A DNA stretch of 11,127 nt. It comes from Pedosphaera sp. GTDB lineage: Bacteria; Verrucomicrobiota; Verrucomicrobiia; Limisphaerales; SIBH01. Location: the NCBI GenBank assembly GCA_031414955.1, contig JANOQV010000291.1, forward strand, positions 1 through 11,127, given 5' to 3'. The translations under genes and the position numbers were made by a program. A model generated the notes under the pieces. It searched no databases. It was not told the DNA's origin and worked only from the letters and a program-made list of their open reading frames with translations. This document shows positions 1 through 11,127 of this stretch, in pieces; position 1 is the stretch's first letter, and each line of letters begins with the position of its first letter.

Positions 1-82
1 AGACCTCGTCGTAGCGTTTGGTCTGCGGGGCCGGCGGGGTCGTGCCGGCTTCGGTCTTCTCGGTCTTGTTGCTTTTTTTCAT
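1..82 (-). CDS. IS3-family transposase OrfA, N-terminal fragment (partial)
   Basis: ATG at 82-80 gives MKKSNKTEKTEAGTTPPAPQTKRYDEV..., open to the edge. KRYDEV(F) fits the usual 'RRY(S/D)xEFK' start of the IS3 OrfA HTH. It lies just inside the IR-like end. Confidence 0.65.
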   Translation of the reverse strand, partial: MKKSNKTEKTEAGTTPPAPQTKRYDEV

Positions 83-140
83 GGGCGCTTTGGAATTAGC
101 GCCCCGCCTCCAAGGTGTCCATCAAACCGGGTGAAGCCCA
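1..140 (-). mobile_element. Left end of an IS3-family insertion sequence (runs off the window edge)
   Basis: Minus strand from 140 reads TGGGCTTCACCCGGTTTGATGGACACC. The 5'-TG terminus and internal GGACAC resemble IS3-group terminal inverted repeats (recalled IS3 IRL TGATCTTACCCAGCAATAGTGGACAC). An OrfA-like start follows at 82. The other end is not visible. Confidence 0.75.
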
Positions 141-150
141 GAAAGCCCAA

Positions 151-201
151 TTACCCGCAGCCGTCGGCCAAGGCGTGAATACGGCTAAGTTCAGTGTTCA
201 T
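151..201 (-). pseudogene. Relic start of a third Rhs C-terminal module (MNTELSRIHALADGCG*)
   Basis: ATGAACACTGAACT is identical to the first 14 nt of module B at 2131. Translation MNTELSRIHALADG vs MNTELSRIGSLVDD. It sits just downstream of an immunity-like gene, as module B does. TAA at 153-151, IS end 10 bp further on. Confidence 0.8.
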
Positions 202-242
202 AACTCCGGCTTCACATCTGCGGCCCATATGATTGCCGTCGG

Positions 243-623
243 TCACTTCTTCAAGCGATTTGTAGATAATGGGAAAGTCGGAACGCCGTATTGCTCTGGT
301 GCGAAAGGATTTTCTTGCCTGTACTTCTTCATCGCCTCGAGAGTGCGCAATGCGACGCTCGAGATATTTTCTGATTTGATCAGTGAAAAATCTGCCAGTT
401 TGCTGTTTAGCGCCATTTCCAATGCTAATCTCGCGTCATTCGATTGATTGCGATTTAAGCGATCCACGGCAGTCAGCAAGAACCCACCGTCGGAAGCTAA
501 TGCCGTCGCCTTTGTAATTTGGTCGCGAGTTTCTGCATTCTTACTCCGCAAGCCGAAGAAAATGCTTGTTGAGGCGACGCCGAGCAACAATGAAAGCAAG
601 GCTAAAAACAACTTGAGCTTCAT
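243..623 (-). CDS. Putative immunity protein for module B tip (126 aa, N-terminal signal/TM segment)
   Basis: ATG at 623 overlaps the module B stop (ATGA coupling), so it is preferred over the longer 668 start. MKLKLFLALLSLLLGVASTSIFFGLR is a basic residue plus hydrophobic helix. Low GC. Position is typical of Rhs immunity genes. Confidence 0.7.
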   Translation of the reverse strand: MKLKLFLALLSLLLGVASTSIFFGLRSKNAETRDQITKATALASDGGFLLTAVDRLNRNQSNDARLALEMALNSKLADFSLIKSENISSVALRTLEAMKKYRQENPFAPEQYGVPTFPLSTNRLKK

Positions 624-2131
624 GGCTTTTCGAGCCCAGCTGCGCACACGGCCGCCTGGGCAGCACAAAGAGCAAGACAGGAGAAGAATTTATCTCCTGT
701 GGGGTCCGGGGTTTTACCTCCAGGATATGACCATTGGGCGAAACAGCAGGCTTCGCATGATTTCTTATACTCGTTGCAAACCGTTGGATCTCCTAAAATC
801 GGAGGTGCTTGCCAGCAGTCTTCGATTTTTTCCGGATCTTCTTTTGGTTTCGGTGGCTTAGGCTTGGAGCAGCCAGTACCAATGATCACTATTACGCAGA
901 TGCAAATTAGAATAGGAATGATACTCCCAGTTGGGTCCACAAAATCTCGCGGTGAATTCAGACAGTATATGTACAGGTTGTTGGAATCTTGATACTGTTC
1001 TGGATCGCGTGTCAGCCACCTACCCAATCCCGGATGCAGATACCTGTTCCTAACCTGATACAATCCCGTCTCCCCATCCCAGCGATAGGCCCCAAAGCGC
1101 GTCTCCCACTCGTAGCTGGAACTGGTCTGGGTGACAAAGCTCGCGTCCATCACCCGCGAGGTGCCAAACGCCTCATAACCATACCGCTCCAGCACCACGC
1201 CGCTCGTGTCCGTCACCGCCGTGGGCTGAAAATAATCTTGGATCACATATAGCCGTTCGCTGCCCCGGTCCCGCAGCACCAGGTCATCCGTATAACGAAC
1301 GCCCCAGACAAACTGCCGGTCCGCCGTCGTGCCGGCATTCAGCCGCTCCTCGATGATCTGCCACTGCGCCGTGTAATAGTAGTGCCGAGTGTCGCTGCCC
1401 GTGGTCTTGATCACCCGCCGGTTCAACCCGTCATAGCGATAGGTGGCCACCGTGGTGCTGACATCGTTGACTTGTACCAGTCGGTTCCAGGCGTCGTACT
1501 TCAGGTCGTAGCCTGCGCCCCAGTTGTCTGGCTTGGGCACCTTGGTCATGTTCCCCGCCGCATCCTCCGCCACCAGCGCGCTGGAACTGTCGATCTGTGT
1601 CAGTTCGTTGGCCGCGTTGTGGGTGCGCGTCTGCGGCGTGCCCGCATTCACCACATATTGGTTCCAGTTCCCCGTGGGATCGAAGGTGAACTGCTCCCGC
1701 CCAGCCAGCGTCCCGCTCACGATCCCGCTGTTCCCATTGTTCAGCTCTCCGCGCTGGAAATCACTCAACTGATCAAGGCCATCGTAAGCGTACAGTTCAT
1801 CCTGCCGCCCGCTGGCCCCGGCCACCGCATTCCGGCGATACAGGCGGTTGTCCGCCCGGTCGTAGCCGTGCTTCAGGCGTTCCAACTCCGCGCCGCTGCT
1901 GTTCTTGATCCAGCGCAGGTCGATGGCCCGGCCAAAGCGATCCCAACCCGTATACTGGTCGCCCCCGTCGCCATCCGGCTCGCTGCCCTGCTTGATCCAG
2001 GTGAACTTTGTCCCCGGCTGCGCAAAATCCACCTGCGCCGTCCGGTTCACCCCCAGATACGTGTACTCCGCCACATGCGTCGGCCCATCATCGTCCACCA
2101 AGGAACCAATGCGCGAGAGTTCAGTGTTCAT
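620..2131 (-). CDS. Rhs module B: C-terminal core (YD repeats plus RHS-associated core) with variable Cys-rich tip, 503 aa
   Basis: YD repeats (YDRADNR, YDAWNR, YDGLNRR). Core-end signature RYGYEAFG...GLYQVRNRYLHPGLGRWLTRDP...NLYIYCLNSPRDFVDPTG, with DPTG at 937-926. About 100 aa of unique tip follow. Confidence 0.93.
   Translation of the reverse strand: MNTELSRIGSLVDDDGPTHVAEYTYLGVNRTAQVDFAQPGTKFTWIKQGSEPDGDGGDQYTGWDRFGRAIDLRWIKNSSGAELERLKHGYDRADNRLYRRNAVAGASGRQDELYAYDGLDQLSDFQRGELNNGNSGIVSGTLAGREQFTFDPTGNWNQYVVNAGTPQTRTHNAANELTQIDSSSALVAEDAAGNMTKVPKPDNWGAGYDLKYDAWNRLVQVNDVSTTVATYRYDGLNRRVIKTTGSDTRHYYYTAQWQIIEERLNAGTTADRQFVWGVRYTDDLVLRDRGSERLYVIQDYFQPTAVTDTSGVVLERYGYEAFGTSRVMDASFVTQTSSSYEWETRFGAYRWDGETGLYQVRNRYLHPGLGRWLTRDPEQYQDSNNLYIYCLNSPRDFVDPTGSIIPILICICVIVIIGTGCSKPKPPKPKEDPEKIEDCWQAPPILGDPTVCNEYKKSCEACCFAQWSYPGGKTPDPTGDKFFSCLALCAAQAAVCAAGLEKP
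1002..2131. repeat. ~1.13 kb direct repeat, copy B (Rhs core end)
   Basis: Aligns to 3037-4166 at a constant offset of 2035 wherever checked. It includes a 140-bp identical tract (1830-1969 vs 3865-4004). Similarity falls after the TRDP codons. Confidence 0.95.
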
Positions 2132-2184
2132 GATGAGTGTTGATTGTTAGAACTGATCCATTTCACTTCGAAGTTTCCACAATG

Positions 2185-2613
2185 CTACGTTGGATTGGAG
2201 AGAGGCTTATCCACTTCAAACCAGCCGAAGCCTTCAGCTTCTGTTGAAGACGTAGGAACGCCAAGAGCTTTTGCGGCTGCCTTGGTTGCAGCTAGACAAA
2301 AGCCCACAGTAGCCGCGCTTTGGAGATCCCGGCCTTCGAATGCGGTGAAGTGATAATCGAATGGTTCGGCGTATATCCTCCGCAGATGCACTACTCCATT
2401 GACCGCAGCAAGTGTGCATTGGATATAAATCTCCTCGGAAGACTTTGTATATTCGGTGCCAGCAATCAAAGAAGGGGGCAACGTCGAAGTGAAGTGTGGC
2501 ATTTTAGGGTCGGTGCCGAGGCAAATTGAAATGCCGACTTTCACATAAATTTCGCCCGCATCGACTGATTTTTTGAGCTCTACGACCGCAGTTAGTGGAG
2601 GGGGCACGTTCAC
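2185..2613 (-). CDS. Putative immunity protein for module A tip (142 aa)
   Basis: Small low-GC ORF (GTG start, uncertain) 26 bp downstream of module A's stop. It fills most of the gap between modules A and B. No obvious signal peptide. Confidence 0.65.
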   Translation of the reverse strand: MNVPPPLTAVVELKKSVDAGEIYVKVGISICLGTDPKMPHFTSTLPPSLIAGTEYTKSSEEIYIQCTLAAVNGVVHLRRIYAEPFDYHFTAFEGRDLQSAATVGFCLAATKAAAKALGVPTSSTEAEGFGWFEVDKPLSNPT

Positions 2614-2639
2614 AGATTAAAGTAAGCTTGTTTGATAAA

Positions 2640-4166
2640 TCAATAAGGGATGCAGTGGAAGGTAGGGGACTCAAATTCTATGCAGGGTACTGATACGGGC
2701 ACCTCAATGGTCGTATGGATGATCCTGCCATCAGGATAAAAACAGATGTAATTGCACAGCTTCCTTCTTGGAGTTGTGGAACGAGTTTTGACAATTTCCT
2801 CCTCAGTCTTTTCGCATGTCTTTTTGCATTTGTTGTAAATCCACTTCGTTAAGAGATAAACGTCCACCGCGAGCAGAACCCATCCAACGCCTGGAATGAA
2901 CTTAGTTACCACTCTGGTGGCAACAAATTTTAAGACCGGGGCTGCGCACGCTGCGGCAAGACCCAGGGCGTCAATCTCATTTGTAGGTCGATTGTGGCAA
3001 TAATCGAAAAGGTTCAGCCCATCGCTGTATTCAATCGGATCTCGTGTCATCCACCTCCCCAATCCCGGATGCAGATACCTGTTCCTGACCTGATACAGTC
3101 CCGTCTCCCCATCCCAGCGATAGGCCCCAAAGCGCGTCTCCCAATCGTAGCTGGAAGCTGTCTGTGTCCCGAAGCTCGCGTCCATCACCCGCGAGGTGCC
3201 AAACGCCTCGTAACCATAACGCTCCAGCACCACCCCGCTGGTGTTGGTCACCGCCGTGGGCTGGAAGTAATCCTGAATCGCGTAGAGCCGTTCACTGCCC
3301 CGGTCCCGCAGCACCAGATCATCCGTGTAACGAACGCCCCAGACAAACTGCCGGTCCGCCGTCGTGCTGGAATTCAACCGCTCCTCAATGATCTGCCACT
3401 GGTCCGTGTAATAGTAGTGCCGCGTGTCGCTCCCCGTGGTCTTGGTCACCCGCCGGTTCAGCCCGTCGTAGCGGTAGGTCGCCACTGTCGTGCTCCCGTC
3501 CTTCACCTCCACCACCCGGTTCCAGGCATCGCACTTCAGATCATGGGCGCTGGACCAACTCCCCGGCTTGGGTGCCCGGGTCATGTTCCCTGCCGCGTCC
3601 TCCGCCACCAGCGCGCTGGAACTGTCGATCTGCGTCAGTTCGTTGGCCGCGTTGTGGGTGCGCGTCTGCGGTGTGCCGGCATTGACCACATACTGGTTCC
3701 AGTTCCCCGTGGGATCGAAGGTGAACTGCTCCCGCCCAGCCAGCGTCCCGCTCACGATCCCGCTGTTCCCGTTGTTCAACTCACCGCGCTGGAAATCACT
3801 CAACTGGTAAAGGCCATCGTAGGCGTACAGTTCATCCTGCCGCCCGCTAGCCCCGGCCACCACGTTCCGGCGATACAGGCGGTTGTCCGCCCGGTCGTAG
3901 CCGTGCTTCAGGCGTTCCAACTCCGCGCCGCTGCTGTTCTTGATCCAGCGCAGGTCGATGGCCCGGCCAAAGCGATCCCAACCCGTATACTGGTCGCCCC
4001 CGTCCCCATCTGGCTCGCTGCCCTGCTTTATCCAAGTGAACTTCGTCCCCGGCTGCGCGAAATCCACCTGCGCCGTCCGGTCTACCCCTAGATAGGTGTA
4101 CTCCACCAAGACGGTCGTCCCGTCGTCGTCCACCAGGGAACCAATCCGCGAAAGTTCACTGTTCAT
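2640..4166 (-). CDS. Rhs module A: C-terminal core with variable tip, 508 aa; in frame with the upstream Rhs ORF
   Basis: Same core motifs as module B, ending NLFDYCHNRPTNEIDALGL (PxxxxDxxG at 2972-2961), then a 105-aa tip. GGAG at 4178-4175 lies 8 nt before the ATG. Confidence 0.93.
   Translation of the reverse strand: MNSELSRIGSLVDDDGTTVLVEYTYLGVDRTAQVDFAQPGTKFTWIKQGSEPDGDGGDQYTGWDRFGRAIDLRWIKNSSGAELERLKHGYDRADNRLYRRNVVAGASGRQDELYAYDGLYQLSDFQRGELNNGNSGIVSGTLAGREQFTFDPTGNWNQYVVNAGTPQTRTHNAANELTQIDSSSALVAEDAAGNMTRAPKPGSWSSAHDLKCDAWNRVVEVKDGSTTVATYRYDGLNRRVTKTTGSDTRHYYYTDQWQIIEERLNSSTTADRQFVWGVRYTDDLVLRDRGSERLYAIQDYFQPTAVTNTSGVVLERYGYEAFGTSRVMDASFGTQTASSYDWETRFGAYRWDGETGLYQVRNRYLHPGLGRWMTRDPIEYSDGLNLFDYCHNRPTNEIDALGLAAACAAPVLKFVATRVVTKFIPGVGWVLLAVDVYLLTKWIYNKCKKTCEKTEEEIVKTRSTTPRRKLCNYICFYPDGRIIHTTIEVPVSVPCIEFESPTFHCIPY
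3037..4166. repeat. ~1.13 kb direct repeat, copy A (Rhs core end)
   Basis: Partner of 1002-2131. Homology starts precisely at the ATG, and the upstream sequences are unrelated. Confidence 0.95.
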
Positions 4167-4169
4167 GGG

Positions 4170-7100
4170 TCAATCTCCGTAATCGAAGTTAAGGCCGCGG
4201 CCGTCCGGGTAGGTGATATTCGTGGGGCGAATGGTGTTCCCGGTGCCACCAACATAGCCATACTGCACGTTGGGCGTGCCGGAGCCAGCCGCGCCGCCAT
4301 GCGCCTGGCCTTCCACCTGCAATTGCGCAAACTCGTTGTAGGTGAAGGCCGACTCGTTGACTATGGTGCTGCCGGTGGCCGAATTGTAACTGGTGATCTT
4401 GGCGAGCATCCCGCGAAACTCGTAGGTGCGGCTCACGCGAAGCACCGCGTTGTCCACCGCCGAACCACTGGGCAAGGTCACACGGTCATGAGCCAGCCGC
4501 CCGAGCTTGTCGTACTCGTAAGCGTGAACGACTCCGCGTTGGTCCTTCATCTGTTTCTTCTCCCCCAACCGGTTATAGGCATACTCCACATGGTCGGTGC
4601 CGGAAAGCGGATTCGGTGAGTCGCTGGAATCGGGATAAATCACCGCGCGGAGCAACCGACTGCTGGCCACGTCGGAATCCGTGAGGGTGGTGCCATAGAC
4701 GTAAGTGGTGACTTGGTTGCCAGTCGTGGCATTGACCGCAGTGAGCGTGCCGAGATCGCCATCGGTGTTGTAAGCGTATTGGGTGGTCTTGTTGATGTCG
4801 CTGCCGCTGCCGCTAGCCTGGTAGTTTTCGATGGTCCCGGTCAGCCGCCCGGCCTGGTCGAATTCCGCCCGCTTGACTGTACCCTTCGGGTCAGTGACCT
4901 GCCACGCATTGCCGCTATCATCATAGTCGGTGGTGGTCACCAGCACGGTGTTCGAGCGGGCGGCACAAGTGGACGGGCGGGTAAGTGCGGTTCCGCCATT
5001 GGTTCCGTAGCTCGCGACGTTGCGGCCCCGGCCCAAAGCATCGGGGTAAATCGCGGAATAGCTGGCACGGGCCTTGGGCTGACTGCCGCCGGGCGTGGTC
5101 AACGGGCCGGTGCCGGTCGCATTATGGAATCGCTCACGCGTGATTTGCAGGACGACATTGCCTTCGGCATCATACGTCAATTCCTCCTGCTGCATGACGG
5201 TGTCGTTGGCCAGGTCGCCAGGCCCAAAGGCGAAGTAGCGGGCGGTGATGCGGTTCAAACCGTCGTAGACCATGGACTGGAACATCTGGCTGCCGGATGG
5301 CAGGCGGCGGATCTGGTTGCCGGCGGCATCGTACCAGTAATTGTCCGTGAGCGAATTGCCACTCGCCCCGTTCGTGCCTTGGCGAACCGTCCGATAAATG
5401 CCCCCGCGCGGGTCATATTTGTTTTCAGTCTTCCAGCCGAGCGCGCCCGTGCTGCCGGTGTCACGACGCTCCGTAAGAATCAAACGATCCAGGTTATTGT
5501 GGTTGAACATTTCGTAGAAGTCGATTTCACCATCGGTGAAAGTGCGGCGACTGCGGAAGTCATAGCCGTGGGTGGTGACGCGTGTGTCACTGTCACTGGC
5601 GAATTGCGTCACCTGGGTCAGATTTCCATTCCCGCCCGCCGCGCCACCATCGTATTGCAACGCTTCGACCTTCTTCATGTTGTTGCCGCCAGTGCCGGCC
5701 CCAGCCGGGTTAGCATAAGTAGCGCCGGAGTCATTGGTGCCGATCCACTTCTCCGCCACCCAGCCCTTGGGGTGATAGACCTGCCGGGTGATGGTGCCGC
5801 CGGGAGTCTTCTCCCGGACTTGCCGCTTCATAGTATCGTAACCAAAGCGGGTCTCGTTGAAATTCGTTCCCGCCACGCCAATGCCCGAGGACGGGATGGT
5901 GGTGTAGAGCCGTTGGAGCAAAAGTTGGCGCGAGGTTTCGTAAGCGAAGAAAGTCCACCGTACCCAGGAAGTCTGCGCGAACGTGTCGGTCGGGAGCAGC
6001 TTGCCGCTGGTGCTGGAGCGGGTCGCCTTGATTTCATCGGTGAGCCGGCTCGCGTTGTCGAACTTGCGGATGGAGACGGGATTGATCAGCGTTTCCGAGC
6101 TGTCGGAAACCTTTTGATAGCCCATGCCCTCCCACTGCTGTCGCTCATCGTCCTTGTACACCACCCAGCGCGCCCGGCGAACCGAAGTCGCGGTGCCGCT
6201 CAGGTCGATCTCGTGCGTCGGCCCCAGTTCCTGGGTCACGCGCCCGCGCTCGTCCACGGTGAAGTCCGTGATCAGGTGCAACCCGCCGCCGCTCGGTGTG
6301 CTCCAGCCGCTGGGAACGGCCGGGCTGTCCGTAATGAGGGTGGTGTTCACATCTTCGATGGTTTGCAGAACCGCCCCGGTTGAAAGGTCAAACTTGTTGC
6401 GTTTAAGAAAGCCGCGTTCGTTCTTCCTCCAAGTGTTGCGGCCATTGATATCGAAGACTTCCTCGAAGAAATCCGCCGTGCCCGATCCGTTCTGGCTGGT
6501 GGAAACAACGGGCAAAGTGGTGGTTCGTTTCTCGAACTGGGTGCTGCCCGAGAACCAGGTATAAGTGTAATCCGTGGTGGCCGCGTCTGAACCGCCACTC
6601 GCATCGCTTTGATAAACGATTTCCTTCCAGGTCAGGTTCACCGTTGAATTGCCGGCCGTGCGCGAGGCGTACTTCCATTCGCGCAACTTGGCCTCCGTGC
6701 CACTGCTGCCCTGCTTTACTTTTTCGTAGCGGAGATAACCGGCCAGTTCGCCATTGGCCAGATCGGTGGACGTGTAAAAGTCGTTCACATGGATCAGCCC
6801 GTCGCTGGATTTGAGGGTGACCAGCCCCGGATCGGACTCGGAGTAGCTCTGAACGGCGGCGGACGATCCCTTGAGCACCAGACGTCCGGCATCGTCATAC
6901 TTGAAATACTCATACCACTCGGCGGAGCCCGCCTTGAAGACCTTGAGCATCGGCTGCGTGGCGTAGTTGGTATAGACGATGTTCTGCGTGCCGTCCGTGA
7001 GGGTCTCCGTGGTCTTGGTTTTCCAGCGATTGAATCCGTCGCTGTGCGCGGAGGTGGAACGACCGAACAGGTAGCTCAATTGCGCGCCGCCCGCCTTTTC

Positions 7101-8135
7101 GGCGGTGACTTCCTTGCTGGAACTGCTGTACTCGAAATAGTTGTCCGAATAGGGCAGGATTTGCGCAAAGGTGGCCAGGTCCGGGGTGATGCCCACCGAC
7201 TCCATCTTGGCGTAACCCTGCGGCCCCAGCACGATCTTGAGCGCATGGGCAAAACCGTTGCTCTCGCCGGTCAGGTAGTAGCGATACAGGCTCTTGGAAA
7301 GATCCTGCCAAGCGTTGGATTTGAATTCCTGTATGGTCACACGCTTGAGGTCGCCGGTGGTGCCATTCGTGTCGGTGCTCACGTAGTAGTCATACTTCGC
7401 GCGCCGCACATCGTTGCCGTTGACCTTGAGCGTCACATACTGGAAGCGACTCGCATTCTCACCGGAGGTGTGGAACGCGTAGTGGTAGCCAGCACTATTG
7501 CCGCCGGACTGCATGACAAACGAGGCGATGCGGTCATCGCCTCCGTAGGTCGCCACGGTCTCGTTTCCATACGGGTCGGTGAAACTCTTGAACTCGCCGC
7601 GCTGGATGGCCGGATGGTTGGTGGTGAAGTCGAAAAACTTGATGACCCGCCCGGTATGCACGTCGGTGTAGATCAACAAATGGTTGGTGGTGTCTTGGAC
7701 CAGGGTGTCTTGGACGAAGAAACGTGCCACCCAACTGCCCGAAACGAGATCGAACCAGAGCGCTTCCTGAATGATGCCCACCAGGCAGAGGGTGGACGAG
7801 TCCGGCTGGGCGAGTTGCGGCAATTGCGCCACGAACCAACTGTTGCCGTTCGCGCCCGCATCCTGATTGGAAAGCCGGTTGCTGTAACTGCGGGTATGGC
7901 CCCAGGGAACTCCGAAGCCATCGGAGGAAAGATCCGTCGTGATGAACCGCACTTCGCCATCACCGTAGCGCACGGGATCGGAACTGAAGGATGAATCTGG
8001 AGGCGGGGGACATGGCGCCACGTCGGGGCAACAACAAGACGTGCATGTCCCTCCGGTTCCATCACCTCCGGGGCCGCAGGTCTTGCCGCAAAGAGTGGGT
8101 GGTTTTGAAGATGTCGGAACTGCGGGTGAACTCAT
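4170..8135 (-). CDS. Rhs/YD-repeat protein, N-terminal and main core portion (1321 aa), lacking the core end and tip
   Basis: DUF6531-like start (SSDPVRYGDGEV...TDL...G.PWGHTRSY) and many YD repeats (YDDAGR, YDAAGN, YDGLNR, YDAEGN, YDKLGR). GAGG lies 8 nt before the ATG. It ends at TGA 4172-4170 in the middle of the repeat region. Confidence 0.92.
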   Translation of the reverse strand: MSSPAVPTSSKPPTLCGKTCGPGGDGTGGTCTSCCCPDVAPCPPPPDSSFSSDPVRYGDGEVRFITTDLSSDGFGVPWGHTRSYSNRLSNQDAGANGNSWFVAQLPQLAQPDSSTLCLVGIIQEALWFDLVSGSWVARFFVQDTLVQDTTNHLLIYTDVHTGRVIKFFDFTTNHPAIQRGEFKSFTDPYGNETVATYGGDDRIASFVMQSGGNSAGYHYAFHTSGENASRFQYVTLKVNGNDVRRAKYDYYVSTDTNGTTGDLKRVTIQEFKSNAWQDLSKSLYRYYLTGESNGFAHALKIVLGPQGYAKMESVGITPDLATFAQILPYSDNYFEYSSSSKEVTAEKAGGAQLSYLFGRSTSAHSDGFNRWKTKTTETLTDGTQNIVYTNYATQPMLKVFKAGSAEWYEYFKYDDAGRLVLKGSSAAVQSYSESDPGLVTLKSSDGLIHVNDFYTSTDLANGELAGYLRYEKVKQGSSGTEAKLREWKYASRTAGNSTVNLTWKEIVYQSDASGGSDAATTDYTYTWFSGSTQFEKRTTTLPVVSTSQNGSGTADFFEEVFDINGRNTWRKNERGFLKRNKFDLSTGAVLQTIEDVNTTLITDSPAVPSGWSTPSGGGLHLITDFTVDERGRVTQELGPTHEIDLSGTATSVRRARWVVYKDDERQQWEGMGYQKVSDSSETLINPVSIRKFDNASRLTDEIKATRSSTSGKLLPTDTFAQTSWVRWTFFAYETSRQLLLQRLYTTIPSSGIGVAGTNFNETRFGYDTMKRQVREKTPGGTITRQVYHPKGWVAEKWIGTNDSGATYANPAGAGTGGNNMKKVEALQYDGGAAGGNGNLTQVTQFASDSDTRVTTHGYDFRSRRTFTDGEIDFYEMFNHNNLDRLILTERRDTGSTGALGWKTENKYDPRGGIYRTVRQGTNGASGNSLTDNYWYDAAGNQIRRLPSGSQMFQSMVYDGLNRITARYFAFGPGDLANDTVMQQEELTYDAEGNVVLQITRERFHNATGTGPLTTPGGSQPKARASYSAIYPDALGRGRNVASYGTNGGTALTRPSTCAARSNTVLVTTTDYDDSGNAWQVTDPKGTVKRAEFDQAGRLTGTIENYQASGSGSDINKTTQYAYNTDGDLGTLTAVNATTGNQVTTYVYGTTLTDSDVASSRLLRAVIYPDSSDSPNPLSGTDHVEYAYNRLGEKKQMKDQRGVVHAYEYDKLGRLAHDRVTLPSGSAVDNAVLRVSRTYEFRGMLAKITSYNSATGSTIVNESAFTYNEFAQLQVEGQAHGGAAGSGTPNVQYGYVGGTGNTIRPTNITYPDGRGLNFDYGD

Positions 8136-8547: not shown

Positions 8548-8892
8548 CTACCTGGCTAGTTTTGTGCGGCGCTTCATCCATTCGCGCGGCGTGAGTCCAA
8601 CGGCGTGTTTGAAGTCGTGCGAGGCGTGGGCGGCATCGTGGTAGCCGAGGGCATCGAAGAATTCCTTGATGCGCTCGCCCAGGCGCAGGCGGAATTTGAA
8701 TTCGCAGAGGCGGAGTTTTTCCAGCCACTTCTTGACCGCGATTTTGAAATGTTGGTGAAAGAAATCCCGCAGCGTGCTGACGCTGGCACCACAATTCTGG
8801 GCCAGCGCTTTCACGCAGTACCGAGCCTTGGCGATTCGAGCCGGCCAATCCGTGATGGCTCGCAAACGGTCCATGACAGTTTGAGTTTTCAT
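8548..8892 (-). CDS. Stand-alone AraC/XylS-family HTH transcriptional regulator (114 aa)
   Basis: First HTH LAQNCGASVSTLRDFF. The AraC C-terminal signature appears as LGYHDAAHASHDFKHAVGLTPREW (cf. GFxDxSHFxRxFKxxxGxTP). No sensor domain. Confidence 0.85.
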   Translation of the reverse strand: MKTQTVMDRLRAITDWPARIAKARYCVKALAQNCGASVSTLRDFFHQHFKIAVKKWLEKLRLCEFKFRLRLGERIKEFFDALGYHDAAHASHDFKHAVGLTPREWMKRRTKLAR

Positions 8893-8930: not shown

Positions 8931-9320
8931 GTGGGTGCAGGACTGCGGGCGCGGGGGGGGCGAAAGTATGGTATCGGCTCACTGGCGGCGGAGAATCTCG
9001 CGGCTCTCGGTGAGTCCAACATCACACAAGAGAAATTGACCGCGCTGACGACGAAGACGGACGCCTTCGCGGCGGTGTCGTCGAAGCCCCGCCAGAGTGT
9101 GGCGAAAAAGGCGTTGCCCCGCCTCTTGAAGCAAGGCCAGAGCATCCTCTCTCGCCGCGTGGATCGTTTGATGGTGCAGTTCAAGGAGAGCGCGCCGGAG
9201 TTTTACGCGGAGTACAAGACGGCCCGCAAAATCGTGGACCAACTCGGCACCCAGCAGGCGCGCGCGGCCACTAACGTCCTTTCGGCGCACAGCCAGCCCG
9301 AGTTGTTGAAGGCGGCGTAA
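8931..9320 (+). pseudogene. Hypothetical helical protein, probably a 5'-truncated fragment
   Basis: Host-like codon usage from ~8980 to TAA 9320. The amphipathic C-terminal motif VDRLMVQFKESAPEFYAEYKTARKIVD is recalled from longer uncharacterised proteins. The 5' part runs through a G8 tract and has no convincing start. Confidence 0.5.
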
Positions 9321-9567
9321 AGCCAGGCTGCCCATCCTGCTAACGACCACCGCAAGCGCAGGCTCGTGGTGGTCGTTCTGTTGTTTGCCAGTCACCTCAA
9401 ATGGGGGCATACGACGTATGGTGTGGCGCAGAAGCAGGACCATTTCTCTTTTCCGTTACACATCACAGGTCCAGCGACGCGAAAATACGGGTTTACCCTG
9501 AGTTCTTCATTGACCCATCTCCGCAGACTTCTTAGGAATGCCAACGAACCCAAGCCCCTTCAATGCT

Positions 9568-10629
9568 ATGCGCGAAAAACTTAGATGCGCGGTCATCGGC
9601 GTTGGTGCCATCGGCATCGAGCACCTGAACAGCCTGTTGCACTGTCCCCGTGCCGCCACGGTGGCGATCGCAGAACTCAACCCTCAACGTCTGCGGGAAG
9701 CCGCGGAAAAATTCCACATCCCGCGCTCCTACTGCAACTACGAGGAGTTGCTCGAACAGCCCGACATTGATGCCGTCACCATCGCCCTGCCCAACTTCCT
9801 GCACGCCCCCGTAGCCATCGCCGCGCTCAACGCGCGCAAGCATGTGCTGATCGAGAAGCCCATGGCCACCAACGCCAAGGAGGCGGCCAAGATCGTGGCC
9901 GCCGCGCAGAAGAACCGGCGCACCGTGATGGTCGGGAAGAATCTCCGCTTCGACAAACACACCCAGAGCGCCCGCCTGGCCATCCAGCGCGGCGATCTGG
10001 GCGAGGTGTATCACGCGCGCGCCTTCTCGCACCGGCAGAGCGAGATACCCCGCATCGGCTCCTGGTTCACGCAAAAGAATCTGGCCGGGGGCGGCTGTCT
10101 GGCGGACGCCGGTTCGATGCTCATCGACACCCTCTTTCACCTACTCAACGACTTCGAGGTTGTATCCGTTTCGGCCACCGCGCATTCCAAATTTGGCACC
10201 CGTGGCAAAGGCGAAGGCAGTTGGGGCAAGAGCGAAATCGATCCGAAACGCACGTTCGACGTCGAAGATCACGGCAGCGCCTTCCTGCGCATGAAGAAAG
10301 GCTACACCGTGACGGTGGAAACAAGTTGGGCGGGATTTCATCCGGGGGACAGCCGGGAGGAAGGCATCGACCTGCTCGGGACGGAGGCCGGCCTGAGCCT
10401 GTATCCGGCCAAGCTCTTCAAGCAAAGCCTGCAAGGCTTCGAGACCACGCACTTCTACAACACGAAGAACGGGCCGGTGGAGGATCGCATTTCGCATTTC
10501 GTGAACTGCATCATCGAAGGCAAGAAGACGCTCGTGCCGCTGGAGGAATCGCTGAAAGTGCAGCAGGTGATGGACGCGATTTACCAGTCGGCGGAGACGG
10601 GCAAGGAAGTGCGGCTGGGCGGGAAATGA
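9568..10629 (+). CDS. Gfo/Idh/MocA-family NAD(P)-dependent oxidoreductase
   Basis: Rossmann motif CAVIGVGAIG, DAVTIALPNFLH, HVLIEKP, GGGCLAD and DVED. The start is probably 9568 (MREKLR), with an alternative at 9538. Confidence 0.95.
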   Translation: MREKLRCAVIGVGAIGIEHLNSLLHCPRAATVAIAELNPQRLREAAEKFHIPRSYCNYEELLEQPDIDAVTIALPNFLHAPVAIAALNARKHVLIEKPMATNAKEAAKIVAAAQKNRRTVMVGKNLRFDKHTQSARLAIQRGDLGEVYHARAFSHRQSEIPRIGSWFTQKNLAGGGCLADAGSMLIDTLFHLLNDFEVVSVSATAHSKFGTRGKGEGSWGKSEIDPKRTFDVEDHGSAFLRMKKGYTVTVETSWAGFHPGDSREEGIDLLGTEAGLSLYPAKLFKQSLQGFETTHFYNTKNGPVEDRISHFVNCIIEGKKTLVPLEESLKVQQVMDAIYQSAETGKEVRLGGK

Positions 10630-10758: not shown

Positions 10759-11127
10759 CTACCGCACCGCCGCCGCACCGTTCCCCTCGTTAAGATACGT
10801 TGCCCCGTCCACTTCGCTTAATTTCAGATACTGGCTCCAGCGCAGGAAACCAATGTCGCGCGTCGCTTCAAGGCGTTCGGTTTTCACTTTCGGCATGGAG
10901 CCGCTGTGCGTGGCGAAGGATTCGTGCAGCACGCGGCCGTCGAGCGGTTGCGGCGGTTTCACGCCCAGGAGATGCAGCACCGTGGGCACGAGATCAATGT
11001 TGCCGCTGGGAATTTCATTCAGGAAGCCGCGTTTGAAATCCGGGCCGGACGCGACCAGCGTGTTGTTCATGTCAAAGCGCGAGAGCGAGGCGTGGCTGCC
11101 TTTGCCCTTCGTGCCGTCCATCGAGTA
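10759..11127 (-). CDS. Alkaline phosphatase superfamily / nucleotide pyrophosphatase-phosphodiesterase, C-terminal part (partial)
   Basis: GSHASLSRFDMNNTLVASGPDF...GNIDLVPTVLHLLG...LDGRVL is the typical C-terminal signature of this superfamily. The frame is open to the window edge. Confidence 0.85.
   Translation of the reverse strand, partial: YSMDGTKGKGSHASLSRFDMNNTLVASGPDFKRGFLNEIPSGNIDLVPTVLHLLGVKPPQPLDGRVLHESFATHSGSMPKVKTERLEATRDIGFLRWSQYLKLSEVDGATYLNEGNGAAAVR

What the first reader, a model, noticed from the sequence alone, without database searches (positions are those of the whole stretch)
151..8135. Candidate bipartite Rhs system: one N-terminal shell gene plus separately translated, interchangeable C-terminal shell+toxin subunits
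Seen: the large Rhs gene stops (…DYGD-TGA-CCC-ATG…) one codon before the Met at which module A starts. Module B (2131) and the relic (201) start at that same homologous Met (MN[S/T]ELSRI). Homology between modules begins exactly at the ATG. Known: canonical Rhs proteins are single polypeptides forming a beta-cocoon, and orphan rhs-CT modules are usually viewed as donors for recombination. Inference: here even the first module is a separate ORF with a good SD, so no full-length Rhs is encoded in the window. The 1321-aa piece might assemble in trans with any of several ~500-aa subunits, letting one cell load different toxins without DNA rearrangement. The mundane alternative is a dead or recombined gene.
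Basis: partly seen in the sequence, partly recalled or inferred. Interest (0 to 1): 0.85.

Follow-up and report, generated by a model that had tools for sequence, protein, structure and literature searches.

The report
Two-gene Rhs toxin shell, swappable caps
A bacterial toxin container that is normally one giant protein is encoded here as one large shell gene plus several smaller cap-and-toxin genes, and relatives have the same split, so a cell may be able to load different toxins into one shell without rearranging its DNA.

Summary
Confirmed, and not a dead gene. The 1321-aa Rhs gene stops one codon before module A. The TGA is in contigs of two samples. Of the nine best database hits, six (ours included) end at this site, at 46-84% identity to each other, and three are fused. 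The 12 best module hits all start at the same Met. A same-genus relic copy uses TAG there. Other branches of the family are split about 40 residues later (N ends and module starts match; one DNA junction seen) and probably about 210 residues earlier. All three cuts lie in loops of the predicted shell, and none is the TcB/TcC cut. A predicted N+A complex continues the beta-sheet across the cut (0.93, best control 0.00; may reflect likeness to solved shells). Best reading: a bipartite Rhs that works like TcB/TcC, arose separately, and carries interchangeable cap+toxin subunits. Translation, assembly, toxicity and delivery are not shown. The Shine-Dalgarno argument is weak in this genome, and most of the family is fused. 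New variant of a known kind; not found in seven literature searches.

The parts
4170..8135 (-). N gene: large part of an Rhs/YD beta-shell (1321 aa); disordered Cys-rich leader (about 1-50), no toxin, no protease motif
   Evidence: ORF; RHS_repeat E 4e-4; model of residues 1-850 pLDDT 89, 1-46 disordered; best fold matches are T6SS Rhs cores, Z 25-26
4164..4181 (-). Junction, site 1: GGA GAT TGA CCC ATG; in-frame stop, one codon, module Met
   Evidence: Sequence; no other letters in contigs of X1 and X2; same site in relatives
2640..4166 (-). Module A: about 402-aa shell cap with Rhs core (D376, D399) plus about 106-aa Cys-rich tip
   Evidence: TIGR03696 61 bits, cut-off 32.5; motifs; predicted to pair with N
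2185..2613 (-). Putative immunity gene A (about 142 aa, start uncertain, low GC)
   Evidence: Position and GC; no Pfam or NCBIfam hit; unnamed Atlas clusters at 0.93; immunity is inferred from position
620..2131 (-). Module B: same start and shell cap (89% identical to A over 402 aa), unrelated about 101-aa Cys-rich tip
   Evidence: dN/dS 0.18 against A
243..623 (-). Putative immunity gene B (126 aa, hydrophobic N-terminus), start overlaps module B stop (ATGA)
   Evidence: Sequence; no family hit over cut-off; immunity is inferred from position
151..201 (-). Relic module start (16 codons, then stop)
   Evidence: Repeat family D3; 70-73% identical to the starts of A and B
1..140 (-). End of a multicopy insertion sequence; breaks the contig just after the relic
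   Evidence: Identical 140 nt at ends of C40 and C34, related 44-nt end on C96 and C134; IS3-like label is recalled

Best explanation
A bipartite Rhs polymorphic-toxin system, probably in a Verrucomicrobiota bacterium (inferred from named relatives). The N gene makes about three quarters of the YD-repeat cocoon. Each downstream module is its own ORF: the last ~400 residues of the cocoon, the Rhs aspartyl-protease core, and a variable Cys-rich tip, followed by a cognate immunity gene. Steps: (1) N and the modules are translated as separate chains, the first module probably coupled to the N stop [split shown; translation inferred]. (2) A module's first strand pairs with N's last strand and closes the shell [predicted]. 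(3) The core cuts the tip, which stays enclosed until delivery [from known Rhs/TcC biochemistry; both Asp present]. (4) Because all modules keep the same start and a conserved cap, one N can take A or B, so the cell fields a mixed arsenal without recombination, as YenB does with YenC1-3 [inferred]. The export route is unknown; the genome has a T6SS, but no link is shown.
For: Same N end in 6 of the top 9 of 120 listed homologues, plus P0243; split N pieces are 46-100% identical open frames. The top 12 of 120 module hits start at the same Met; 41 more start at module position 41; the other 67 start at 49 positions, at most 4 each. Three modules with different tips share the longest-contig length (60,797) of split N piece P0002. 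Different stop codon (TAG) at site 1 in G011 and an intact 1922-codon frame ending at site 2 in G211. Out-of-frame junctions inferred at site 2. dN/dS 0.18 for the A and B caps, 0.095 in the first 200 codons. Cuts lie in loops of a pLDDT-88 model of a fused sister. Complex score 0.93, best of 3 controls 0.00; the mark was reached by 116 of 157 solved and 2 of 215 mismatched pairs; runs agree in at least 99% of contacts; partner pLDDT at least 93; N 1315-1318 pairs with A 9-12. Precedent: YenB with YenC1/2/3 (PMC11067744, passages).
Against: No transcript, protein or binding data. The complex pass may come from likeness to solved single-chain shells. Module B has no SD, and SD motifs are not enriched in this genome. 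Most of the family is fused: 93 of 120 N hits. In the genome samples, 23 further places in 16 genomes that span the junction have no stop (9, 14 more). Three of the 10 clade members are fused, and a split-only clade is rejected (p-AU 2.5e-51). The two genomes with a split seen in DNA show decay: G011's N is a ~175-codon relic with an internal stop, and one G211 module is frameshifted. Most support is protein-level gene calls; co-location is inferred from equal contig lengths. Purifying selection on caps is also expected for recombination donors.
Confidence: 0.7

Rival explanations
1. Two-chain shell, but only the first module is made (coupled to the N stop). Later modules are silent donors that replace the first by homologous recombination, as in canonical rhs arrays.
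For: Only module A has an SD-like motif and an adjacent stop; the downstream G011 module also lacks one. A and B are about 90% identical over ~1.1 kb. Relics and frameshifted modules occur. C-terminal displacement is the standard model (PMC2935791, passages).
Against: Donors need no start codon or fixed 5' end, yet downstream modules keep both: module B, L002, P0124/P0241/P0242, and 41 site-2 starts. SD motifs look unimportant in this genome. dN/dS is lowest in the first 200 codons.
Confidence: 0.18
2. The N gene is a decaying or switched-off remnant; the modules act alone as toxin-antitoxin pairs or as immunity reservoirs.
For: Salmonella rhs tips are made from internal starts as type II TA modules (PMC7043789, passages). 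G011 holds only a relic N. Fused sisters exist.
Against: Seven N frames of 1259-1324 aa stay open at 46-100% identity and end at one site. The Salmonella starts lie within about 89 nt of the PxxxxDPxG motif, while here ~400 residues of shell are kept, which a TA toxin would not need.
Confidence: 0.07
3. The stop is read through or recoded, giving a normal single-chain Rhs.
For: The window's TGA and the TAG codons of G011 and G211 are in frame with the module.
Against: The stop differs between relatives (TGA, TAG). P0153 and P0155 imply a stop and a start in different frames, and the YEDPEP* endings fit an ATGA overlap (both inferred by back-translation). No tRNA-Sec or tRNA-Pyl was found by ARAGORN in G000 (incomplete genome). 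The aligned residue in fused forms is S/A/G/T, not Cys.
Confidence: 0.04
4. Sequencing or assembly artefact.
For: The genome is a fragmented metagenome assembly (313 contigs); many database proteins end at contig breaks.
Against: Same base in contigs of two runs; same end in relatives on contigs of 61, 66 and 218 kb.
Confidence: 0.01

Closest known systems
TcB/TcC (BC) cocoon of ABC toxin complexes, e.g. Yersinia entomophaga YenB with YenC1, YenC2, YenC3 (PMC11067744; PDB 4igl, 5kis, 6l7i)
   Same: RHS shell made of two chains; the C-terminal chain carries the protease core and a variable tip; several C subunits share one B and give a mixed toxin population; fused B-C genes also occur (PMC7861908, passage).
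   Different: The cut is elsewhere: TcC chains align from model residue 264-266 and YenB ends at 270, while site 1 is at 501, site 2 near 542 and site 3 near 290-298. The cap is ~400 aa, not ~680. N matches T6SS Rhs cores (Z 25-26) better than TcB (Z 9-16) and has no TcB Pfam domains. Each tip is followed by a putative immunity gene; no TcA gene lies in the window.
Canonical Rhs effectors with orphan tip arrays (RhsA, Rhs1, RhsP, Tse5, Tse15; PMC2935791, PMC5727410)
   Same: YD shell fold (Z 20-26), Rhs-associated core, variable low-GC tip plus small gene, tandem array.
   Different: No intact full-length gene heads the array; all modules begin at one Met with a full cap. In Serratia only one fragment had a start site (PMC2935791). 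No PAAR or VgrG domain was detected on N.
Salmonella rhs-CT type II toxin-antitoxin modules (PMC7043789)
   Same: C-terminal Rhs parts made without recombination from their own start codons.
   Different: There the main gene is intact and only the tip is made; here the main gene ends at the module start and ~400 shell residues are kept.
Bacterial teneurin-like proteins (PMC13018210; PDB 9ifo, 9pt5)
   Same: Best sequence hits for module A in the PDB (E 2e-13 and 3e-11) and top fold match for the junction region (Z 25.2); toxin in a YD shell with immunity genes.
   Different: Single chains with FN-plug and NHL domains; the word search of that paper found no split forms and no Verrucomicrobia or Planctomycetes.

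Membership tests
Rhs polymorphic toxin | YD/RHS-repeat beta-shell | tested here: met
   PF05593 hits; models pLDDT 88-89; fold matches Z 20-26, rmsd 2.4-4.5 A over 500-700 residues for the top rows
Rhs polymorphic toxin | Rhs-associated core with two Asp and DxxG before the tip | tested here: met
   TIGR03696 over cut-off in A and B; D376 and D399 in both; cleavage itself not tested
Rhs polymorphic toxin | Variable tip followed by a small cognate gene | tested here: met
   Unrelated tips in A and B, each followed by a small low-GC ORF; PLA2-like tip in relative P0126
Rhs polymorphic toxin | Tip is toxic and the small gene neutralises it | not testable with these tools
   No family hit over cut-off for tips A or B; weak Ntox16 lead for tip B, 0.78
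Rhs polymorphic toxin | Shell, core and tip in one polypeptide | tested here: not met
   Stop between N and module A, conserved in relatives
Rhs polymorphic toxin | N-terminal delivery domain (PAAR, VgrG, signal peptide) | tested here: inconclusive
   No Pfam hit in N 1-200; leader 1-46 disordered; genome has TssC and two VgrG on other contigs
Tc toxin BC component | Shell formed by two separately encoded chains | tested here: inconclusive
   Two ORFs shown; binding only predicted (0.93, best control 0.00)
Tc toxin BC component | Cut at the TcB/TcC boundary, C chain with ~680-aa shell part | tested here: not met
   Tc boundary at model residue 264-270, site 1 at 501
Tc toxin BC component | TcB domains (SpvB, TcdB_toxin_midN, midC) | tested here: not met
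   No such Pfam hit at E up to 0.1; only general fold likeness to TcB, Z 9-16
Tc toxin BC component | TcA translocase gene nearby | tested here: inconclusive
   None in the window; the PF03538 genome search rang nowhere, controls included
Canonical orphan rhs array | Intact full-length rhs at the head, 5'-truncated fragments mostly without a start behind it | tested here: not met
   Head gene ends at the module start; A, B and the relic share one ATG
Salmonella-type rhs TA module | Internal promoter and start just upstream of the PxxxxDPxG motif | not tested
   The sigma-70 scan found no minus-strand site, but it does not cover this organism's promoters well; no RNA data

The most novel reading that the evidence does not exclude
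In PVC-group bacteria this Rhs family has been cut into two chains independently at three or more surface loops (N-equivalent positions about 1110, 1321 and 1362), and split and fused states interconvert within clades. Each split turns the 'orphan' array into a set of co-expressed, interchangeable cap+toxin subunits. The TcB/TcC design would then be one case of a recurring evolutionary move, and some arrays read as silent donors would be active arsenals.
Probability: 0.55. Interest if true: 0.85.

Novelty: new variant of a known kind. Interest (0 to 1): 0.72.

Why it matters
Orphan rhs modules are usually read as silent donors or as sources of immunity. A conserved stop-and-restart at a fixed shell loop gives a second way to use them: toxin choice at the protein level. 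It makes three questions directly testable: whether an Rhs cocoon can close after translation around a cargo, which loops tolerate a cut, and how the TcB/TcC split arose. It also warns annotators that such genes are not pseudogenes.

Tried and rejected
Expression: no RNA holder listed; contigs cannot show expression. Viral contigs: 4 pattern matches, no relative. Genome and metagenome scans (10 and 15 loci) gave fused or partial copies, no site-1 split locus. Class and phylum samples of 401 genomes each added no split locus; these are samples, not proof of absence. SD strength as evidence: rejected as weak; the 16S tail was not found in the assembly. Sigma-70 and terminator scans: at or below shuffled counts. 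Selenocysteine or pyrrolysine: no such tRNA found. Afp/phage sheath: 0 matches. PF03538 search uninformative. Tip and immunity families: none over cut-off; Atlas gave leads only. One origin of the site-1 split with no reversal: rejected. A possible fourth site near N 980: 5 of 109 proteins end at 979-982 but matching starts were not found; not claimed. P0045, P0056 and P0085 end PEV[SI] and may be one-base frameshifts, so 3 of the 14 site-2 N rows are uncertain. P0414 ends at a contig end and is not counted. Earlier findings of this scan: nothing relevant. Literature: seven searches listed no paper on a split non-Tc Rhs shell; the library lacks most subscription papers, and no supplements were read, including those of PMC3482391, which may list such architectures.
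Full report
Observation. The window is a whole contig of an assembly of 6.5 Mb in 313 contigs, 95.9% complete. On the minus strand lie a 1321-aa ORF (8135-4170, called N), module A (4166-2640), a small gene, module B (2131-620), a small gene, and a 16-codon relic at 201. N ends FDYGD-TGA, and module A's ATG follows after one codon. A, B and the relic share the start MN(S/T)ELSRI. Identity between A and B begins at the ATG and ends at the tips. Contigs of two runs carry the TGA with no other letters over 3975 to about 8400; both runs are from one study, and one may be the source. Bases 1-140 are a multicopy insertion-sequence end that breaks the contig, so more modules may lie beyond.

What the parts are. 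N has YD repeats and folds like the first part of T6SS Rhs cores (Z 25-26) after a disordered Cys-rich leader. The modules carry the Rhs-associated core over its cut-off, with Asp at 376 and 399, then tips of about 100 aa with 7 and 11 Cys. That these Asp form the self-cleaving protease is established knowledge of Rhs and TcC, not tested here. The small genes have no family hit; immunity is inferred from position. The genome encodes TssC and two VgrG elsewhere; nothing ties them to this locus. Named relatives are mostly Verrucomicrobiota, then Planctomycetota, so the host phylum is inferred.

Is the split conserved? The search with N's C-terminal part gave 519 hits, of which 120 were listed. 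Of these 120, 6 (ours included) end within 3 residues of our stop, 11 end 39-43 residues later, 93 are fused and 10 end elsewhere. The 6 are among the top 9 hits; the other 3 of the 9 are fused. Their endings differ: YGD, YGD, YEDPEP, YAG. Three lie on contigs of 61-218 kb. The search with module A listed 120 of 382 hits. The top 12 (two are ours) start exactly at the Met; 41 start at module position 41; the other 67 start at 49 positions, at most 4 each. Split N piece P0002 and three modules with the same start and different tips all have a longest contig of 60,797 bases; I infer one array like ours. In DNA, same-genus genome G011 has FSYED-TAG, one codon, then MNSQLN, but its N is a relic of about 175 codons with an internal stop; another G011 contig holds two modules, one seen starting MNNQLNRI.

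Further cut sites. Site 2: genome G211 has an open frame of 1922 codons ending VEYGS-TAG, with ATG five codons later; its downstream modules carry the N tail and stop, and one is frameshifted. N pieces and modules share contig lengths in three more cases. The mis-called starts of P0153 and P0155, read in another frame, can give QVD[N/S]PQPD and a stop, the ending of the site-2 N pieces; this implies a stop and a start out of frame (inferred). Site 3: 18 fetched proteins start at N-equivalent 1107-1116, 15 with Met, and 4 of 109 new proteins from the last search end at 1107-1109 just after ENY or ENC; P0421 and P0200 share a contig length of 13,980. No DNA was seen for site 3, so it is probable, not shown.

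History. In a tree of 124 N segments, the 7 site-1 pieces and 3 fused proteins form one clade with support 100; site-2 pieces (14, of which 3 uncertain) are scattered among fused proteins. The cap tree (111 rows; 49 of 94 fused rows left out for size) gives the same clade, 14 site-1 modules with the 3 fused. In a rooted 16-row tree one basal branch is all split and the other is mixed; a split-only clade is rejected (p-AU 2.5e-51). The three fused sisters keep Met at the site, against 12 of 93 fused rows overall. Either one fission with re-fusions, or repeated fission at an internal Met, fits. Both need selection: site-1 N pieces are 46-84% identical (one pair 100%) and stay open. Against generality: 93 of 120 hits are fused, and in genome samples 23 places in 16 genomes that span the junction have no stop.

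Structure. A model of a fused sister (L026, 905 aa, pLDDT 88) puts the site-1 Met at residue 501, after the loop behind strand 490-494, and site 2 near 542, after a hairpin loop; site 3 falls near the loop at 287-298. Loops are frequent in this fold, so this is consistent rather than strong. TcC chains align from model residue 264-266 and YenB ends at 270, so site 1 is about 235 residues downstream of the Tc cut. The predicted complex of N 830-1321 with A 1-404 scored 0.93 against a best control of 0.00; the mark was reached by 116 of 157 solved complexes and 2 of 215 mismatched pairs; the runs agree in at least 99% of contacts, and the partner's pLDDT is at least 93. N 1315-1318 pairs with A 9-12, continuing the sheet. 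Halves of a split gene can pass by likeness to solved shells, so this shows fit, not binding.

Translation signals. GGAGA precedes module A, and GAGGA precedes the G011 junction, both formed by the last N codons. Module B has none. SD motifs were found before 93 of 1065 starts (8.7%) against 8.3% in random windows (the set includes false ORFs), so neither presence nor absence weighs much. dN/dS between the A and B caps is 0.18, and 0.095 in the first 200 codons; donors for recombination would also show this.

Mechanism. Most likely (0.70): N and each module are made separately; a module completes the cocoon, cuts its tip and encloses it; N can take any module of its array. Shown: the split, its conservation, the common start, selection on the caps. 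Predicted: the fit. Inferred: translation of B, interchange, toxicity, immunity. Unknown: export. Rivals: only the first module is made and the rest are donors (0.18); N is a remnant and the modules act alone (0.07); read-through (0.04); artefact (0.01).

Comparison. It works like TcB/TcC, where YenB pairs with YenC1, YenC2 or the orphan YenC3 and yields mixed complexes in vivo (PMC11067744, passages), and where fused B-C genes exist (PMC7861908, passages). It is not a Tc member: different cut, no TcB domains, Rhs-type N. It has Rhs parts but fails the single-chain feature. Canonical arrays have an intact head gene and mostly startless fragments (PMC2935791, passages), though some orphans are transcribed (PMC5727410, passages) or act as TA modules from starts close to the tip (PMC7043789, passages). 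I also saw passages of PMC3482391 and PMC11435725, and the abstract, outline and passages of PMC13018210; none describes this split in what I saw. Seven searches listed no description; supplements were not read.

Verdict. Real, conserved, and probably functional. New variant of a known kind. Interest 0.72.

Noticed in passing
window 1-140: End of a multicopy insertion sequence, identical at ends of C40 and C34, other end on C96 and C134; 3-bp flanks pair C34 with C96 and C40 with C134. IS3-like is a recalled label.
   Followed up: partly
window 8548-8892 (-): Stand-alone AraC-type HTH gene (114 aa, PF12833 over cut-off) upstream of N on the same strand; a possible regulator.
   Followed up: no
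window 620-925 (-): Tip B starts with a hydrophobic stretch and TGC, then a Pro/Lys-rich linker, like a lipoprotein signal; tips of P0124 and P0127 start the same way (SGC). Weak Ntox16 lead.
   Followed up: partly
window 7971-8135 (-) and module tips: N's first 55 residues hold 7 of its 9 Cys, and 11 of 12 site-1 tips checked are 6-15% Cys; this may point to disulfide or metal binding and an oxidising destination.
   Followed up: no
window 2185-2613 (-): Putative immunity A resembles unnamed Atlas clusters (0.93) and, weakly, EF-G domain IV (0.91; family on 12% of members).
   Followed up: partly
P0420, P0421, P0364, P0388 (ends); P0176, P0179, P0184, P0199-P0201, P0208, P0236 and others (starts): Probable third cut site at N-equivalent about 1110, some 30 residues after the TcB/TcC boundary.
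   Followed up: partly
P0442, P0444, P0451, P0452, P0453: Five proteins end at N-equivalent 979-982 after YDL[DA]ETxYP; no matching starts found, so either a fourth site or contig breaks.
   Followed up: partly
G000 contigs C56, C96, C266, C292, C300, C13, C134: Nine more Rhs-core matches of other families, in frames up to 3903 codons, one on the same contig as a VgrG; TssC on C69 and C208.
   Followed up: no
window 8931-9320 (+), 9538-10629 (+), 10759-11127 (-): A 129-aa ORF without family hit, a Gfo/Idh/MocA oxidoreductase, and the end of a probable phosphatase/sulfatase-like gene; no sign that they belong to the Rhs locus.
   Followed up: no
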